DNA of 64,000 bases, from positions 16,953 through 80,952 of the forward strand of contig WRCN01000007.1 in NCBI GenBank assembly GCA_009783885.1, written 5' to 3'. This document shows positions 976 through 54,636 of this stretch, piece by piece. The notes under the pieces are model-generated. The model saw nothing but the letters and a program-made list of their open reading frames with translations. It had not been told where the DNA came from and searched no databases. The DNA comes from Bacteroidales bacterium. GTDB lineage: Bacteria; Bacteroidota; Bacteroidia; Bacteroidales; P3. The position numbers were made by a program, and so were the translations under genes. Every line of letters starts with the position of its first letter. Within the stretch, counting starts at the first letter, position 1.

Positions 976-1039
976 GTCATTCCGAGCGCAGTCGAGGAAT
1001 CCCCCTTGCATGGGATGTCTCGGCTACGCTCGACATGAC
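976..1039. repeat. GAGCG-core hairpin repeat pair
   Basis: GTCATTCC-GAGCGCAGTCGA-GGAATCCCCC, loop TTGCAT, then GGGATGTC-TCGGCTACGCTC-GACATGAC. It sits between the ribF-like start (967) and the stop of the upstream gene (1045). Confidence 0.85.
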
Positions 1040-2907: not shown

Positions 2908-2936
2908 TTTTTCTAGTTTTAAAAGGTTAAAGGTGC

Positions 2937-3001
2937 GTGGTCGTTTCGACTCCGCTCAACGACCACAATAAGGTTGGTGGCTGAGCGGAGCCGAAGCCAC
3001 C
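2937..3001. repeat. GAGCG-core hairpin repeat pair
   Basis: GTGGTCGTT-TCGACTCCGCTC-AACGACCAC, then GGTGGCT-GAGCGGAGCCGA-AGCCACC. It abuts the stop codon of the TPR gene (3003). Confidence 0.85.
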
Positions 3002-18141: not shown

Positions 18142-18238
18142 GTCACTCCGAGCGCAGTCGAGGAACCGAAGCACGAAGTGCGAGTTCGGCGAAGCCGATC
18201 CCTTCGCTATGGGATGTTTCGACTGCGCTTGACATGAC
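18142..18238. repeat. GAGCG-core hairpin composite (two units plus small internal hairpins)
   Basis: GTCACTCC-GAGCGCAGTCGA-GGAAC, spacer, then GGGATGTT-TCGACTGCGCTT-GACATGAC. It forms the last 32 or so codons and the stop of ptrB. Confidence 0.85.
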
Positions 18239-24771: not shown

Positions 24772-25296
24772 TTAGGTGTAGCTTTTAAATGTTCCATCCA
24801 TAAAAAACACGATAATTCTTTCGATATCAGAATTTTGATTAGATTCCCGTTTGCTTGCAGGCGGGGCTTTTTCGTGCTGCTCAATTGAAGTAGATGGTGG
24901 CGCGGACTTGTAGTCTGTGCCGTTCCCTTCGACTCCGCTCAGGGATCGGTCGTTGATCGGAGCCGAAACGAGCGTCCGCACCACTGGTAAGTCTGTATCA
25001 ACAGTTTCACTATTCCATTCAAATTCAGGCGTTTTAAAGTCTAATTTAGGCTCTTGTTGTACCGATAGGGTGGGGGCGGATTTTTCAAGGCTAAACATCT
25101 GGTTTTTGCCTGTAAGCAGCCATTCGGCATTGATTTCGGGGAAACGATTGAGGGTTTTCATCACAAAATCCAAACTTGGATTGTTTCGGCGAGCCAATAT
25201 ATGAGACATACTTGAGCGTTGAATTCCGATCGCATCTGCGAACTGGGTTGGGGTTAAATTTTGAGTTTTTAAAATTAACTCGATTCGGTTGATCAT
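24772..25296 (-). CDS. XRE/Cro-type helix-turn-helix transcriptional regulator with a repeat-encoded internal segment
   Basis: N-terminal HTH: MINRIELILKTQNLTPTQFADAIGIQRSSMSHILARRNNPSLDFVMKTLNRFPEINAEWLLTGK. The middle segment ...RTLVSAPINDRSLSGVEGNGTDYKSAP... is encoded by the repeat at 24896-24984. Confidence 0.75.
   Translation of the reverse strand: MINRIELILKTQNLTPTQFADAIGIQRSSMSHILARRNNPSLDFVMKTLNRFPEINAEWLLTGKNQMFSLEKSAPTLSVQQEPKLDFKTPEFEWNSETVDTDLPVVRTLVSAPINDRSLSGVEGNGTDYKSAPPSTSIEQHEKAPPASKRESNQNSDIERIIVFFMDGTFKSYT
24896..24984. repeat. GAGCG-core two-unit element with outer stem, inside the HTH gene
   Basis: Outer arms GGTGGCGCGGAC / GTCCGCACCAC. Inner units are GTTCCC-TTCGACTCCGCTCA-GGGA and TCGTT-GATCGGAGCCGA-AACGA. 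GTAGTCTG at 24910. Confidence 0.8.
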
Positions 25297-41617: not shown

Positions 41618-42931
41618 ATGTCTCTCGCAGGCAAAAATATCATTGTAGGAATTAGCGGAGGGATTGCAGCTTACAAAACTCTTTCGCTTATTCGGCTTTT
41701 CGTGAAAAACGGGGCTAATGTAAAAGTTGTTGTAACACCGAATGCCCTGAATTTTGTAACAAAATTATCATTGCAAACGCTGTCGAAAAATAAAATTTAC
41801 GACAGCGTTTTTTCTGAAATCAACGACTATTCGACCGAACATATTGCTTTGACTGATTGGGCTGATATGATGGTTGTTGCACCTGCCACAGCAAATATCA
41901 TCGGGAAATTCGCCACCGGTATTGCAGATGATGCCCTATCAACAACATTTTTAGCATTCGACAAACCTGTTTTTATTGCACCTGCAATGAACAACAAAAT
42001 GTACGAAAATCCGGCTGTTCAACGCAATTTACAAACGTTAATTGAGTGTGGCATTCATACGATTGAATCCCCAATCGGCGAATTGGCATGTGGTTGCGAA
42101 GGCAAAGGCAGAATGGAAGAACCTGAGGTGATTTTTGAGCGTATCACCGGTTTTTTTTTGACCTTAGAACATGCTGACCATGCTCCTACAAAACCGTTTT
42201 GTGGCAAAAAGGTTTTGGTAACGGCAGGTCCGACTTACGAAGTCATAGACCCCGTTCGATTTATTGGTAATCATTCATCAGGATTGATGGGGATTTGCAT
42301 TGCCGATGAGCTTGCTGATCGCGGTGCAGAAGTGATTTTAGTTTGTGGACCAAGTGTGATCAAATCGAAAAATTCTTCGGTTAAACGTATGGATGTTGTT
42401 TCTGCAAAAGACATGTTTGACGTTTGTAAACAACATTTCGAAACTGCTGATATTACCGTGTGTTCAGCAGCTGTTGCGGATTATACCCCAAAACAAATTG
42501 CATCACAAAAAATCAAGAAAAAAGACAATGATTTAGTCCTGAAACTCACCAAAACTCCTGATATTTTAGGTTATTTAGGTGAACATAAAACTTCTGAACA
42601 ATTTTTAGTTGGTTTCGCATTAGAAACGGAAAACGAATTTCAAAACGCCGAAACCAAGCTAAAATCAAAGCATTTGGATATGCTCGTTTTAAATTCTTTG
42701 AATGATGAAGGCGCAGGTTTTGGGCATATCACAAACAAAATTTCTATGCTTTTTAAACAAGGCACGGGTTGCGCTTCGACTCCGCTCAGCGCACGGACAT
42801 TGAGCGGAGCCGAAATGTCCGCGCCCACGATTAAACATTTTGAACTAAAAAATAAGATGGATGTGGCGAAGGATATTGTTGATGAAATTTTCAAAGCCGT
42901 CATGTCGAGCGCAGTCGAGACATCCCCTTAA
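41618..42931 (+). CDS. coaBC: Bifunctional phosphopantothenoylcysteine decarboxylase / phosphopantothenate-cysteine ligase, with repeat-encoded insert and tail
   Basis: CoaC motifs GISGGIAAYK and PAMNxxM. CoaB motifs VTAGPTxExIDPVRFIxNxSSG and AAVADY. The insert TGCASTPLSARTLSGAEMSAP and the tail VMSSAVETSP are encoded by repeats. Confidence 0.9.
   Translation: MSLAGKNIIVGISGGIAAYKTLSLIRLFVKNGANVKVVVTPNALNFVTKLSLQTLSKNKIYDSVFSEINDYSTEHIALTDWADMMVVAPATANIIGKFATGIADDALSTTFLAFDKPVFIAPAMNNKMYENPAVQRNLQTLIECGIHTIESPIGELACGCEGKGRMEEPEVIFERITGFFLTLEHADHAPTKPFCGKKVLVTAGPTYEVIDPVRFIGNHSSGLMGICIADELADRGAEVILVCGPSVIKSKNSSVKRMDVVSAKDMFDVCKQHFETADITVCSAAVADYTPKQIASQKIKKKDNDLVLKLTKTPDILGYLGEHKTSEQFLVGFALETENEFQNAETKLKSKHLDMLVLNSLNDEGAGFGHITNKISMLFKQGTGCASTPLSARTLSGAEMSAPTIKHFELKNKMDVAKDIVDEIFKAVMSSAVETSP
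42761..42826. repeat. GAGCG-core two-unit element inserted in frame in coaBC
   Basis: TGCGC-TTCGACTCCGCTCA-GCGCA, then GGACAT-TGAGCGGAGCCGAA-ATGTCC. Confidence 0.85.
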
Positions 42932-42964
42932 GCAGGGGGATTCCTCGACTACGCTCCGAATGAC
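42899..42964. repeat. GAGCG-core hairpin pair spanning the coaBC stop codon
   Basis: GTCATGTC-GAGCGCAGTCGA-GACATCCCC, loop TTAAGCA (the TAA stop lies in the loop), then GGGGGATTCC-TCGACTACGCTC-CGAATGAC. Confidence 0.85.
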
Positions 42965-52180: not shown

Positions 52181-52996
52181 ATGTATTTTGAACAAACGTC
52201 AAACATAAAAAAACACGCTTTGAATCTTGGTTTTTTTGCGTGTGGAGTAGCTAAATCGGAAGTTTTGAGCGATGACAAAATTCACTACGAAAACTATCTT
52301 CAACGTGGTGATCACGGTGAAATGAATTACCTGACCAATTATTTTGACAAACGTTTCAATCCTGCGTTAGTGTTGGAAAACACGAAATCGGTGATTGTAG
52401 TTTTGTGGGATTATTCAATGTATGACCCCAAAAAAACTCCTGAAGGAAAACTTGCGAAATACGCCTGTGGAGAGGATTACCACATTGTTATCAAATCTAA
52501 ACTTTTACAGTTAGAAAATGAAATTCACAAACTTTTTCCACAAGCCAACATGCGCTCATTTGTCGACGCATCGCCGGTTTTGGAAAAAACATGGGCTATC
52601 AAAGCAGGGGTGGGATTTCGAGGGAGAAATACATTATTGATCAATCCTACCATTGGCTCCTATTGCAATATTGGTGTAATTTTAACCGACCAAGAATTGG
52701 CTTACGATACACCGCTCGAAATCACGTGTGGCACGTGTTCTCGATGTTTGGAAAGTTGCCCGACAGGCGCATTGGCTCTCCCCTATCAACTGAATGCACG
52801 AAACTGTATTTCGTATTACAATGCCGAAAAAAAACGCGCTGCAACATTTGATTTGCATGGTTGGGCACAGGGGTGCGATGAATGTCAGATGTGTTGTCCA
52901 TGGAATATGGGTACGAGGTATGAGGTGGCGGGGTACGAGGTTTCCTCGAAGCACACCCCGCACCTCGAACCCCGTAACCCCGCACCAAATAACTAA
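52181..52996 (+). CDS. queG: tRNA epoxyqueuosine(34) reductase QueG, apparently short, with repeat-encoded C-terminus
   Basis: Two 4Fe-4S motifs, CGTCSRCLESCP and CDECQMCCPWN. The ORF ends about 30 codons after CPWN inside a GC-rich heptad palindrome (GTRYEVAGYEVSSKHTPHLEPRNPAPNN). Confidence 0.75.
   Translation: MYFEQTSNIKKHALNLGFFACGVAKSEVLSDDKIHYENYLQRGDHGEMNYLTNYFDKRFNPALVLENTKSVIVVLWDYSMYDPKKTPEGKLAKYACGEDYHIVIKSKLLQLENEIHKLFPQANMRSFVDASPVLEKTWAIKAGVGFRGRNTLLINPTIGSYCNIGVILTDQELAYDTPLEITCGTCSRCLESCPTGALALPYQLNARNCISYYNAEKKRAATFDLHGWAQGCDECQMCCPWNMGTRYEVAGYEVSSKHTPHLEPRNPAPNN
52908..52986. repeat. GC-rich 7-nt repeat palindrome
   Basis: GGGTACGA-GGTATGA-GGTGGCG-GGGTACGAGG TTT CCTCGAAGCACACCCCGCACCTCGAACCCCGTAACCCCGCACC. 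Confidence 0.7.
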
Positions 52997-53009: not shown

Positions 53010-53588
53010 ATGAAAATTATTATTATTGAAAAGAATAATCAGTTTCGCCTAATCCCCGATTCCGCGCTATTGCTGAAAAATAGACCATTGTTTTGCCCTG
53101 ATTATGTGCAGACATTACACGCAAAAATCGCATTGGTTGTAAAAATTAACCGCTTGGGCAAATATATTCAAGAAAAATTTGCACCAACATATTACGATGA
53201 AGTCGGTTTTGCTATTAATTTTTACGACAAAACTTGTTTAGATTCTCTTATTCAACAGGGTTTACCATGGGAACGTGCCACGTGTTTTGATGGCAGTTTT
53301 GCGCTGTCGGAATTTGTGGCTTCGACTTCGCTCAGTCACCGTGTGCAGGTGCGGACGTTGAGCGCAGTCGAAACGCCCGCGCCGATAGAAAAGAAACAAA
53401 CATTTGAAATCGTACAAACCATTCAAAAAATCCCTTCTATAATTTCAAAATTATCCACCTACATGACCTTGAAAATTGGGGATTATATTGCATTTGAAAT
53501 TAGTGAATTTCCCGAATCGATTGCGATTAATGATGTTTTGCGATTGTCGGTTGATGGTAAACAAATGGTAAATGTTGTTGTAAAGTAA
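53010..53588 (+). CDS. Fumarylacetoacetate-hydrolase (FAH) fold-like protein with divergent catalytic motifs and a repeat-encoded insert
   Basis: MKIIIIEKNN..., LLLKNRPLF and GLPWERATCFDGSFALSEF parallel the MKIICIGRNY, lFlKp and G.PWe.aK.FD blocks of small FAH proteins. The insert ASTSLSHRVQVRTLSAVETPAP comes from a repeat. Confidence 0.55.
   Translation: MKIIIIEKNNQFRLIPDSALLLKNRPLFCPDYVQTLHAKIALVVKINRLGKYIQEKFAPTYYDEVGFAINFYDKTCLDSLIQQGLPWERATCFDGSFALSEFVASTSLSHRVQVRTLSAVETPAPIEKKQTFEIVQTIQKIPSIISKLSTYMTLKIGDYIAFEISEFPESIAINDVLRLSVDGKQMVNVVVK
53316..53382. repeat. GAGCG-core two-unit element inserted in frame in the FAH-like gene
   Basis: GTGGC-TTCGACTTCGCTCA-GTCAC (one G-T pair in the stem), then GCGGACGTT-GAGCGCAGTCGA-AACGCCCGC. 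Confidence 0.85.
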
Positions 53589-53589
53589 A

Positions 53590-53651
53590 GTTCCCTTCGA
53601 CTCCGCTCAGGGAACAAGTAAATTTGGTCGTTGAGCGAAGTCGAAACGACC
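53590..53651. repeat. GAGCG-core hairpin pair between convergent genes (terminator candidate)
   Basis: GTTCCC-TTCGACTCCGCTCA-GGGAAC, then GGTCGTT-GAGCGAAGTCGA-AACGACC. Confidence 0.85.
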
Positions 53652-53661
53652 GGCAACAAAA

Positions 53662-54636
53662 TCAAAATTCCATCACCCGCGTATACAATTCTCGAATCGT
53701 CCATCCCATGGCTCGCGCCTGTTGTGGGACAATGCTGTTTTCCGATTGTCCGGGAACGGTGTTTACTTCAAGAAAATACAGGGCATTCGTGTTGTCTTCT
53801 AAAATGAAATCGAAACGCACAATACCGGCGCAGTTCAGTTCGTCGTAAAGTTTGGAAGCCGTATCTTGCATGAGTTTGCTGTATGTTTCGTCTACCTGTG
53901 CGGGTGTCACTTCATCCGTTAATCCTGTGGTGTATTTAGCTTCGTAATCGAAAAATTCTTTTTTACTGATGATTTCCGTTATCGGGAATATAATTTTTTT
54001 GCCTTTTGAGCGAAACAGACCACATGAAAATTCGCGTCCTTTCACGAATTTTTCGATGAGCACTTGCGAGTCCTCTTCAAAAGCACGGTCAATAGCCGGT
54101 TTCAGTTCGTTAAACGTTTTCACTTTTGACATCCCGATACTCGAACCTCCGCAATTCGGTTTCACAAAGCATGGAAAGCCTAATTTTTCAGATATTTCGG
54201 AAACATGGTAAGGTTTGTCTTTAAAAATATGCACCGAATCAGAAACGTTTACCACATTTAGATTTTTTACGACTTTGTTGCAAAATCCTTTGTTGAATGT
54301 AAGTGCGGACGTAATGGCATCGCACGTGTTGTATGGGATTTTGAGCATGTCGAGATAACCTTGCAATTTTCCGTCTTCGCCCGGAGTGCCATGCACAATG
54401 ATGAATGCCGCATCAAATGTGATGTGTTTGCCGTCGATGGTTAAACTAAAATCGTTTTTATCAACGGAAATTTGCTTACCGTCGCCCGTGGTATGTATCC
54501 AGCTTTCGGGTGTAATGATAATCTTGTAAACGTTGAATAATGCGGGGTCTAAGTGTTGTTCAACCACCGTTGCACTGCGAATCGAAACCACGTTTTCTCC
54601 GGAATATCCGCCTGCAAGTAATGCGATGTTTTTCAT
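53662..54636 (-). CDS. ddl: D-alanine--D-alanine ligase
   Basis: The N-terminus MKNIALLAGGYSGE and the ATP-grasp blocks (FVKPNCGGSSIGMSKV, EVNTVPG) are present. The start was trimmed to 54636. Confidence 0.9.
   Translation of the reverse strand: MKNIALLAGGYSGENVVSIRSATVVEQHLDPALFNVYKIIITPESWIHTTGDGKQISVDKNDFSLTIDGKHITFDAAFIIVHGTPGEDGKLQGYLDMLKIPYNTCDAITSALTFNKGFCNKVVKNLNVVNVSDSVHIFKDKPYHVSEISEKLGFPCFVKPNCGGSSIGMSKVKTFNELKPAIDRAFEEDSQVLIEKFVKGREFSCGLFRSKGKKIIFPITEIISKKEFFDYEAKYTTGLTDEVTPAQVDETYSKLMQDTASKLYDELNCAGIVRFDFILEDNTNALYFLEVNTVPGQSENSIVPQQARAMGWTIRELYTRVMEF

What the first reader, a model, noticed from the sequence alone, without database searches (positions are those of the whole stretch)
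53316..53382. Second in-frame repeat insertion, in the FAH-like gene
The ORF 53010-53588 reads ...CFDGSFALSEFV[ASTSLSHRVQVRTLSAVETPAP]IEKKQTFEIV.... The bracketed segment is a two-unit element (GTGGC/TTCGACTTCGCTCA/GTCAC plus GCGGACGTT/GAGCGCAGTCGA/AACGCCCGC). The encoded peptide resembles the coaBC insert (S-T-[PS]-L-S ... T-L-S-[GA]-[AV]-E), so the same element is read in the same frame and orientation. One stem pair is G-T on the coding strand, which would be a tolerated G-U pair in the mRNA.
Basis: seen in the sequence. Interest (0 to 1): 0.6.

Follow-up and report, generated by a model that had tools for sequence, protein, structure and literature searches.

The report
Hairpin repeat replacing a protein strand
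A 66-base selfish hairpin DNA repeat has overwritten 18 codons in a conserved enzyme-like gene of an uncultured termite-gut bacterium and is translated as protein, at a spot where most related bacteria carry some other hairpin repeat.

Summary
Window 53316-53382 holds two hairpins with near-identical 14-nt cores (TTCGACTTCGCTCA and its near-complement). It is read in frame inside an intact 192-aa FAH-fold gene, and contigs from four termite-gut runs of three studies match it exactly. "Insertion" is only partly right. Against the nearest repeat-free orthologue, 22 repeat codons replace about 18 native codons, the first strand of a beta-hairpin. The net gain is 6 residues.

The gene is still under purifying selection (dN/dS 0.13). 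It belongs to a clade that has lost the FAH metal ligands.

The site is a hotspot. About 29 of 37 orthologues carry a hairpin repeat of some family in the same ~30 codons, and there are almost no indels elsewhere in the gene. Strains 93-96% identical in the flanks carry quite different cassettes.

The element is a REPIN-like doublet with a conserved core (GAGCGNAGYCGA) and co-varying stems. The same core occurs across many bacterial phyla. I found no description of this core family.

The closest known cases are Rickettsia palindromic elements and intragenic REP dimers. I class it as a new variant of a known kind.

The parts
53010..53588 (+). Host gene: a 192-aa FAH-fold (FAHD1/YcgM-like) protein of a clade that has lost the metal ligands and the TGTPxGVG motif
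   Evidence: Pfam PF01557 scores 31 bits against a cut-off of 23.9. AF2 pLDDT 88.8. Foldseek TM 0.81 to FAHD1 1saw/6sbj. ExE reads KIA and D reads N in all 37 close orthologues. dN/dS 0.13 against L202.
53319..53384 (+). Repeat-derived DNA: 66 nt, 22 codons, A104-P125 (ASTSLSHRVQVRTLSAVETPAP). It stands where 18 native codons lie in the nearest orthologue.
   Evidence: DNA alignment with L202; codon view.
53316..53339 (.). Hairpin unit 1: stem GTGGC/GTCAC with one G-T wobble, and core L TTCGACTTCGCTCA (53321-53334)
   Evidence: There is a compensatory T-A to A-T change relative to the L205 copy (GAGGC/GTCTC).
53340..53350 (.). Spacer CGTGTGCAGGT between the two units
53351..53380 (.). Hairpin unit 2: stem GCGGACGT/ACGCCCGC with one A.C mismatch, and core L' TGAGCGCAGTCGAA (53359-53372)
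   Evidence: The L205 copy has the same A.C mismatch.
53385..53414 (+). Retained native codons IEKKQTFEIV, the second strand of the beta-hairpin
   Evidence: Aligns with E.QTFEI of repeat-free orthologues. AF2 models a strand at 126-133.
53589..53655 (.). Sister doublet in the FAH-ddl spacer (stems GTTCCC/GGGAAC and GGTCGT/ACGACC). It is absent from L202.
42761..42826 (+). Sister doublet read in frame in coaBC, in the same phases
24896..24984 (-). Sister doublet with an extra outer stem, read in frame in an XRE-type gene on the minus strand, in the same phases
2936..3001 (.). Sister doublet filling an intergenic spacer

Best explanation
The segment is a non-autonomous, REPIN-like inverted doublet of a small hairpin module.

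The module: it has a nearly fixed 12-14-nt core, (T)GAGCGNAGYCGA(A), closed by a short GC-rich stem that differs from copy to copy but stays complementary. The family is abundant in this termite-gut Bacteroidales lineage. Its core is found in many bacterial phyla.

This copy: it landed in the region of a degenerate FAH-fold gene that encodes a beta-hairpin. Either in the same event or by later trimming, about 18 native codons were lost. The 22 repeat codons now stand in their place and are translated in one of the element's stop-free frames. The protein fold and purifying selection on the rest of the gene are retained.

The site: these ~30 codons are the only region of the gene that varies widely in length and sequence. 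With the high repeat load of these genomes it has become a turnover hotspot. Different repeat families occupy it in different orthologues, and whole cassettes differ between closely related strains, most simply by homologous recombination.

Shown: repeat identity, replacement, intact selected gene, hotspot, cassette differences between close strains, stem covariation, cross-phylum core.

Inferred: movement through single-stranded hairpin DNA by a trans-acting enzyme (a RAYT-like tyrosine transposase or an Ssn-like GIY-YIG nuclease); tolerance of the peptide as a substitute strand.
For: - Repeat identity: 9 core matches against 0.01 expected, making 5 doublets in 64 kb.
- Covariation: 85.7% of stem cells pair against 66% in shuffles (0/500) and 38-50% when the partners are slid; 26 cells carry double changes against 8.9 expected.
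- Replacement: alignment with the syntenic L202, whose flanks are closely similar, shows 66 nt in place of 54.
- Function: dN/dS 0.13 over 160 codons. The exact locus appears in 4 runs of 3 studies.
- Fold: kept, with the repeat peptide RVQVRTLS modelled as the first hairpin strand at pLDDT about 72. The native hairpin scores 86-90.
- Hotspot: in 37 orthologues only the region after SFALSEF[MV] varies in length, apart from two N-terminal extensions and a one-residue C-terminal indel. About 29 carry signature peptides of hairpin repeats. Of 13 loci read as DNA, 10 have strong, GC-rich inverted repeats there, one (L006) carries core-type sequence without a strong fold, and the two native ones are AT-rich and unstructured.
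- Scatter on the tree: insert type needs 14 changes, which is not better than shuffled labels.
- Cassette swaps: L203 and L004 are about 96% identical in the flanks, L204 and L011 about 93%, and their cassettes are unrelated.
- Cross-phylum core: 308 units in 118 loci; stems of at least 4 bp in 84% against 11% in the control.
Against: - A motif regex found no small GIY-YIG ORF in the window or the fetched loci.
- No target-site duplication is visible.
- Replacement rather than insertion is not what simple transposition predicts.
- The cassette-swap evidence rests on short metagenome contigs of 1.3-1.8 kb, so strain-chimeric assembly is not fully excluded.
- The AF2 placement of the repeat peptide as a strand may be driven by the alignment.
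- No RNA or protein data exist.
Confidence: 0.8

Rival explanations
1. The repeat-encoded peptide has been taken over by the host. It now serves as the first strand of the beta-hairpin, so selection keeps it at the protein level and it is more than a tolerated passenger.
For: AF2 models RVQVRTLS (111-118) as a strand paired with IEKKQTFE, in the position of the native EILCSK strand. Segment length is roughly conserved, at +6 residues. The same element, with the same A.C defect, persists in the diverged orthologue L205.
Against: pLDDT drops to about 72 there. The alignment may impose the topology. Orthologues fill the site with unrelated peptides such as VETGRAPSLQ, GAYCIRP and VVERSRND, so no particular sequence is required.
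Confidence: 0.25
2. The hairpins are kept for a nucleic-acid function. They might be an mRNA stability or processing element. They might be single-stranded-DNA sites for an Ssn-like nuclease that promote recombination or transformation at this locus.
For: The stems stay paired inside coding sequence. Between the window (GTGGC/GTCAC) and L205 (GAGGC/GTCTC) a compensatory change costs two amino-acid replacements. The core is conserved across phyla. Cassettes differ between close strains at exactly this site. NTS/SRM hairpins cut by Ssn modulate transformation in Neisseria (PMC11893778).
Against: Unrelated repeat families occupy the site. Eight orthologues have none. Identical doublets sit in ordinary spacers. 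The published SRM search motif gives 0 hits in the window. No Ssn gene was found, though it could hardly be looked for. Gene conversion from other copies would also keep the stems paired.
Confidence: 0.15
3. The segment is a native, lineage-specific variable loop, and its likeness to the repeats is chance.
For: The region is hypervariable in all orthologues.
Against: Both cores match the dispersed 14-mer with 0-1 mismatch, against 0.01 expected by chance. Local GC is 0.51 against 0.32-0.37 in native versions. The peptide matches the coaBC insert.
Confidence: 0.02
4. The gene is a pseudogene, or the insert is an assembly artefact.
For: Single-MAG source; the gene has lost its catalytic residues.
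Against: The ORF is intact. dN/dS is 0.13. All 37 orthologues share the same residue losses, so the losses are old and stable. The sequence is identical in contigs from four runs of three studies.
Confidence: 0.02

Closest known systems
Rickettsia palindromic elements (RPEs; Ogata et al. 2000, as summarised in PMC10969869 and PMC3733652)
   Same: Palindromic selfish repeats found both between genes and in frame inside functional protein genes, read as extra peptide compatible with the fold.
   Different: RPEs are about 100-150 bp and belong to Rickettsia-specific families with a conserved peptide. This element is 66 nt, has no detected sequence relation to them, sits in Bacteroidales, replaces native codons instead of only adding, and shares its site with many other repeat families.
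Intragenic REP dimers of the GTAG/CGTC super-families (Di Nocera et al. 2013, PMC3733652)
   Same: Dimers of 20-40-bp hairpins that encode 20-30 amino acids inside ORFs. There is a precedent for different REPs at about the same site in the recB genes of two Xanthomonas species. The GTAG-type REPs at this very site in orthologues (L004, L009, L011) are of this kind.
   Different: REP families are defined by a conserved stem plus a GTAG or CGTC tag and mostly have 2-5-nt loops. Here the 12-14-nt 'loop' is the conserved part, the stems vary, and this copy has no tag. The strings GAGCG and CGCTC do not occur in that paper's text.
REPINs mobilised by RAYT tyrosine transposases (Bertels and Rainey 2011, PMC3116915)
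   Same: An inverted doublet of two hairpin units that can fold into one long hairpin, multi-copy and non-coding by itself.
   Different: The two units of a doublet have different stems, and there is no GTAG. The presence of a RAYT gene could not be tested.
NTS/SRM hairpin repeats and Ssn GIY-YIG single-strand nucleases (Chenal et al. 2025, PMC11893778)
   Same: High-copy hairpins found across phyla. Sister units in this window carry the same CGTCATTC...GAATCC frame as NTS. Both have apices of the GCG-N(N)A-GC mini-hairpin type.
   Different: The published SRM search motif finds 0 matches in the window. The loop is much longer. No Ssn gene was seen. Ssn has not been shown to move repeats.
Mini-hairpin DNA d(GCGNAGC) (Hirao review, PMC13037366)
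   Same: The L' core contains GCGNAGY. Three window copies read GCGGAGC exactly. N is the free apex base of the GNA triloop, with Tm 70-76 C for any N.
   Different: That is a physical motif and not a genetic element. In the FAH copy the closing pair is G-T (GCGCAGT). Folding of the whole core is my inference.

Membership tests
REP/REPIN (RAYT-associated) | Short (20-40 bp) imperfect palindromes in many dispersed copies, mostly next to the 3' ends of genes | tested here: met
   Five doublets and more single units in 64 kb; two of them abut stop codons.
REP/REPIN (RAYT-associated) | Inverted doublet able to form one long hairpin | tested here: met
   The lowest-energy RNA fold pairs L with L' at -37 kcal/mol, with 0 of 200 shuffles as good. 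As DNA the z-score is only -1.7.
REP/REPIN (RAYT-associated) | Conserved GTAG (or CGTC) tag at the foot of the stem, and a conserved stem | tested here: not met
   This copy has no tag. Stems differ between copies and between the two units.
REP/REPIN (RAYT-associated) | Cognate RAYT (Y1 transposase) gene in the genome | not testable with these tools
Rickettsia palindromic elements | In-frame presence inside functional protein-coding genes | tested here: met
Rickettsia palindromic elements | Size of about 100-150 bp and sequence membership in the RPE families | tested here: not met
   The element is 66 nt. No comparison with RPE sequences was run. The size and the different host phylum argue against membership.
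SRM/NTS repeats of Ssn nucleases | Match to the degenerate SRM search sequence HGTCWYN(0-2)YYVSBRHN(0-5)WNVSBRGN(0-2)RNCYNB | tested here: not met
   0 matches on both strands of the window.
SRM/NTS repeats of Ssn nucleases | An Ssn (cd10448 GIY-YIG, about 90 aa) gene in the genome, often flanked by the repeats | tested here: inconclusive
   A motif regex found none in the window or in 200 fetched loci. The genome itself could not be searched.
MITE | Terminal inverted repeats plus a target-site duplication | tested here: not met
   L and L' can be read as 14-bp imperfect inverted repeats, but they lie inside the flanking stems. No duplication is seen against the empty or native site in L202.
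FAH superfamily (host gene) | FAA_hydrolase domain and fold | tested here: met
   PF01557 at 31 bits, above 23.9. TM 0.81 to FAHD1.
FAH superfamily (host gene) | Metal-binding Glu-x-Glu and Asp, and the TGTPxGVG motif | tested here: not met
   These read KIA, N and AFEISEFPES in all 37 close orthologues, while 35-41%-identical relatives keep them.

The most novel reading that the evidence does not exclude
The GAGCGNAGYCGA hairpin may be a module found across bacteria and not yet described. A conserved single-strand-DNA enzyme would recognise it. The module would spread by break-and-patch repair that overwrites target DNA, not by simple insertion. In repeat-rich lineages this would turn tolerant protein loops into cassette sites that are refilled by different repeat families and exchanged between strains. 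That would be a repeat-driven route to hypervariable protein segments.
Probability: 0.15. Interest if true: 0.8.

Novelty: new variant of a known kind. Interest (0 to 1): 0.55.

Why it matters
Translated selfish palindromes are textbook only for Rickettsia. This case shows the phenomenon in free-living gut Bacteroidales. It also goes further in three ways:
- the repeat stands in for a structural strand and not merely a loop;
- one 30-codon site has been filled again and again by unrelated repeat families across a whole clade;
- the cassettes differ between near-identical strains.

That gives a natural experiment on how proteins absorb random peptide segments. It also offers a handle on how these repeats move, because replacement without a target duplication is a clue to the mechanism. 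The cross-phylum core with co-varying stems points to a widespread hairpin-recognising activity that has not been identified for this family.

For annotation, such segments inflate apparent protein diversity and can mislead orthology and domain calls in metagenomes.

Tried and rejected
- **Stems made from target DNA** (a hairpin-capped break or P-nucleotide-like model). Rejected: the stems are GC-rich, unlike the local sequence, and the same stems (GGTCGT, TTCCC, GGTGGC, GCGGAC) recur in other copies.
- **Hammerhead-like or tRNA T-arm-like core.** By eye the core does not fit either consensus. Rfam gives no hit at gathering level for the whole window, and only chance-level hits (E 0.87 or higher) at 53200-53720.
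- **Membership in published SRM repeats.** The regex gives 0 hits. The paper's supplements are not held.
- **Literature search for the exact core strings.** No relevant paper. Searches for termite or Bacteroidales in-frame palindromes and for cyanobacterial small dispersed repeats gave nothing specific.
- **Small GIY-YIG ORFs near the units.** Two regexes found none. This is a weak test.
- **RNA evidence.** No RNA run holds the gene.
- **A special bias towards the stop-free frame.** Not needed: 3-4 of 6 frames are open in every doublet.
- **Microhomology between the native TTCGGA and the core TTCGAC/TTCGGC as the cause of the shared left junction.** Considered, but it does not reproduce the observed junctions.

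Full report
**Source and setting**

The window is part of an ~89-kb contig of an uncultured Bacteroidales from termite gut. GC content is 39.6%. The gene at 53010-53588 lies between queG and a convergent ddl. The nearest relative has the same order (L202).

The ORF reads ...SFALSEFV-ASTSLSHRVQVRTLSAVETPAP-IEKKQTFEIV.... The DNA under it is as follows:
- Unit 1: GTGGC, then TTCGACTTCGCTCA, then GTCAC.
- An 11-nt spacer.
- Unit 2: GCGGACGT, then TGAGCGCAGTCGAA, then ACGCCCGC.

The two 14-mers are near reverse complements. With at most 1 mismatch this 14-mer occurs 9 times in the window against 0.01 expected. That gives five two-unit copies:
- two in spacers (2936-3001 and 53589-53655);
- three inside genes (coaBC, this gene, and an XRE-type gene on the other strand).

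All three intragenic copies are read with L in phase 2 (S-T-P/S-L-S) and L' in phase 1 (L-S-G/A-V/A-E). Contigs from four runs of three studies match the laid stretch, including the element, without a single difference.

**Which fold is real**

As a free strand the lowest-energy fold pairs L with L' into one long hairpin (RNA -37 kcal/mol, z -2.8; DNA z -1.7). L and L' are never exactly complementary in any copy.

The small stems beside each core are complementary although their sequence changes. On 19 units from the window and orthologues:
- 85.7% of stem cells pair, against 66% in shuffles (0 of 500 reach it) and 38-50% when the partners are slid.
- 26 cells carry changes on both sides, against 8.9 expected.

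**Insertion or replacement**

The closest orthologue with DNA is L202/P0002, which is 74% identical as protein and has closely similar flanking DNA. It has no repeat here. Between the shared GAATTTGTG and CAAACCAT it has 78 nt, where the window has 96 nt.
- The 54 nt for KLSEVSSRSEILCSKNNN are gone from the window.
- 66 nt of repeat (A104-P125) stand in their place.
- The following IEKKQTFEIV is native, as the E.QTFEI consensus of other orthologues shows.

In the same comparison the repeat at the queG 3' end (52906-52996) is a plain addition. The FAH-ddl spacer is 11 nt in L202 and 74 nt here, with no visible homology between the two.

**The gene is alive**

Outside the variable segment, dN/dS against L202 is 0.13 (dS 0.66, 160 codons). 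The protein is an FAH fold: Pfam scores 31 bits and the TM-score to FAHD1 is 0.81. The whole clade of 37 orthologues has lost the Glu-x-Glu and Asp metal ligands and the TGTPxGVG motif. The 35-41%-identical relatives of 203-204 aa keep them. It is therefore probably a non-catalytic or re-purposed FAH-fold protein.

**Structure**

In the native P0002 model the segment is a beta-hairpin, with strands at 113-118 and 122-127 and pLDDT 86-90. In the query model the repeat-encoded RVQVRTLS (111-118) takes the first strand and the native IEKKQTFE the second, at pLDDT about 72. This suggests that the repeat peptide substitutes for the lost strand. The alignment may be driving that result, so I treat it as an inference.

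**A hotspot**

In the alignment of 37 orthologues (57-74% identical to the query), the region after SFALSEF[MV] is the only one that varies widely in length. The only other indels are two N-terminal extensions, probably start-codon calls, and a one-residue indel near the C-terminus.
- Eight sequences have a native-looking K[IL]SEI....E[LI].FSKNN.E.Q.F.
- About 29 carry peptides that are signature translations of hairpin repeats. Examples are VETGRAPSLQ and its relatives (GTAG-type REPs), GAYCIRP...GVCNTP, VHVGANNYLPLQ, AGADVHVRA, and core-type LSGVEG, VVERSRND and LRFAQDD.
- Of the 13 loci whose DNA I read, 10 hold strong, GC-rich inverted repeats there (GC 0.39-0.52, -0.21 to -0.41 kcal/mol per nt, perfect repeats up to 23 bp).
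- One more, L006, carries core-type sequence but is AT-rich and weakly folded (GC 0.36, -0.13 per nt).
- The two native loci are AT-rich and unstructured (GC 0.32-0.37, -0.12 to -0.16 per nt).

The elements sit at four or more sub-positions: right after EFM, after KISE, after KISEI...., and after FSKNN. This argues for a tolerant region filtered by selection more than for one sequence-specific target.

**Turnover and exchange**

On a tree built without the variable columns, insert types are scattered. They need 14 changes, no better than shuffled labels.
- P0033 has the core-type cassette of P0026. It is nested with 100/100 support among three sequences that carry KISEIQN plus a GTAG REP.
- P0036 (ASTSLSH...VIERSRND) is sister to P0017 (native NISEISEYC plus a GTAG REP) at 99/94.
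- At the DNA level L203 and L004 come from one metagenome and are about 96% identical on both sides. They differ by a 60-nt cassette against an 87-nt cassette that starts at exactly the same base as in the window. A more divergent patch lies 60-170 nt upstream, as an imported recombination tract would leave.
- L204 and L011 repeat the pattern, with flanks about 93% identical.
- The window's element and that of L205 share stems, a compensatory T-A to A-T change in unit 1 and the same A.C defect in unit 2. They therefore descend from one copy, although the window's sister P0002 is native.

The simplest reading is a long-lived cassette polymorphism moved by homologous recombination between co-resident strains. 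The caveat is that these are short metagenome contigs.

**What the element is**

The hits came from:
- Cyanobacteria (Pseudanabaena, Leptolyngbya, Nodosilinea);
- Bacteroidota (Flavobacterium, Tenacibaculum, Chryseobacterium, Bacteroidales);
- Leucothrix, Moraxellaceae, Scalindua, Spirochaetes and Geobacter;
- candidate phyla radiation (CPR) bacteria and others.

In those loci 308 units carry the core. Of these, 84% have a perfect flanking stem of at least 4 bp, against 11% when the arms are dealt to other units, and 47 different stem 4-mers occur. So the conserved part is the "loop" and the variable part is the stem, which is the reverse of classical REPs.

The L' strand contains GCGNAGY. GCGNAGC is the extraordinarily stable DNA mini-hairpin, with Tm 70-76 C for any N (PMC13037366). 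From the sequence, the flanking GA...GA and T...A could continue the stack. This is not tested.

**Comparison with what is known**

- In-frame palindromic repeats are known from Rickettsia (RPEs).
- They are also known as intragenic GTAG/CGTC REP dimers encoding 20-30 residues, including one case of different REPs at the same recB site in two Xanthomonas species (PMC3733652).
- Sister units in this window have the CGTCATTC...GAATCC frame of the Neisseria NTS. Ssn GIY-YIG nucleases cut the NTS as single-stranded DNA (PMC11893778). However, the published SRM motif finds nothing here.
- Rfam has no matching family, and no paper in the library contains the core strings.

I therefore class the finding as a new variant of a known kind.

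**Limits**

There is no genome-wide census of copies and frames and no search for RAYT or Ssn genes.
- No RNA run holds the gene.
- The mobilising mechanism is inferred by analogy.

Noticed in passing
window 52906-52996 vs L202 5980-6004: The GC-rich heptad palindrome at the end of queG is a ~91-nt addition that the nearest relative lacks. There queG is 245 aa and its TGA overlaps the FAH start (ATGA). In the window the repeat supplies 26 extra C-terminal residues and a new stop.
   Followed up: partly
L011 824-970 vs L009 2243-2404: Orthologous GTAG REPs at the same site in close relatives differ by several paired changes in the stem (GTAGAGACGCACGGCCGTGCGTCTCTAC against GTAGAGACAAGGCATGCCTTGTCTCTAC). 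Given the short protein branch lengths in this clade, this looks like replacement or gene conversion from other genomic copies and not point mutation.
   Followed up: no
L084-L201 (loci): The exact two-unit pattern occurs in many phyla. In Pseudanabaena it is a very uniform 47-nt element (ggc-L-gcc...ggc-L'-gcc). In Leucothrix mucor a 41-nt form recurs identically on several contigs. Many units elsewhere are followed by GAC/GTCA, as in the CGTC-tagged repeats.
   Followed up: partly
window 53010-53588 and alignment A2: The whole termite-gut clade of this FAH-fold protein has lost the metal ligands and the N-terminal GRNY..H..E segment. Even so it is strongly conserved (40 invariant columns) and keeps its place between queG and ddl. 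This looks like a pseudoenzyme of unknown role.
   Followed up: partly
window 983-996, 18149-18162, 42906-42919, 42944-42957: A second sub-family, CGTCAT(T/G)(C/T)-CGAGCGNAGTCGAG-(G/A)(A/C)ATCCCC, has the same frame as the Neisseria NTS/dRS3 (CGTCATTCC...GGAATCC) but a 14-nt core. One copy supplies the end of coaBC.
   Followed up: no
native orthologue DNA, e.g. L004 903-935, L006 933-965: The native codons KISEI are encoded by tandem perfect palindromes, GAAATTTC-(G/T)-GAAATTTC. This might make the site fragile and contribute to the hotspot.
   Followed up: no
window 53276-53379 (records 6/14/23): A more abundant relative in the same gut samples (word depth 8-76, higher than the window's organism in two of the three runs) carries a similar element at the same site with 9 substitutions and 6 gapped positions. 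The element-bearing allele is therefore shared by at least two co-resident populations.
   Followed up: no
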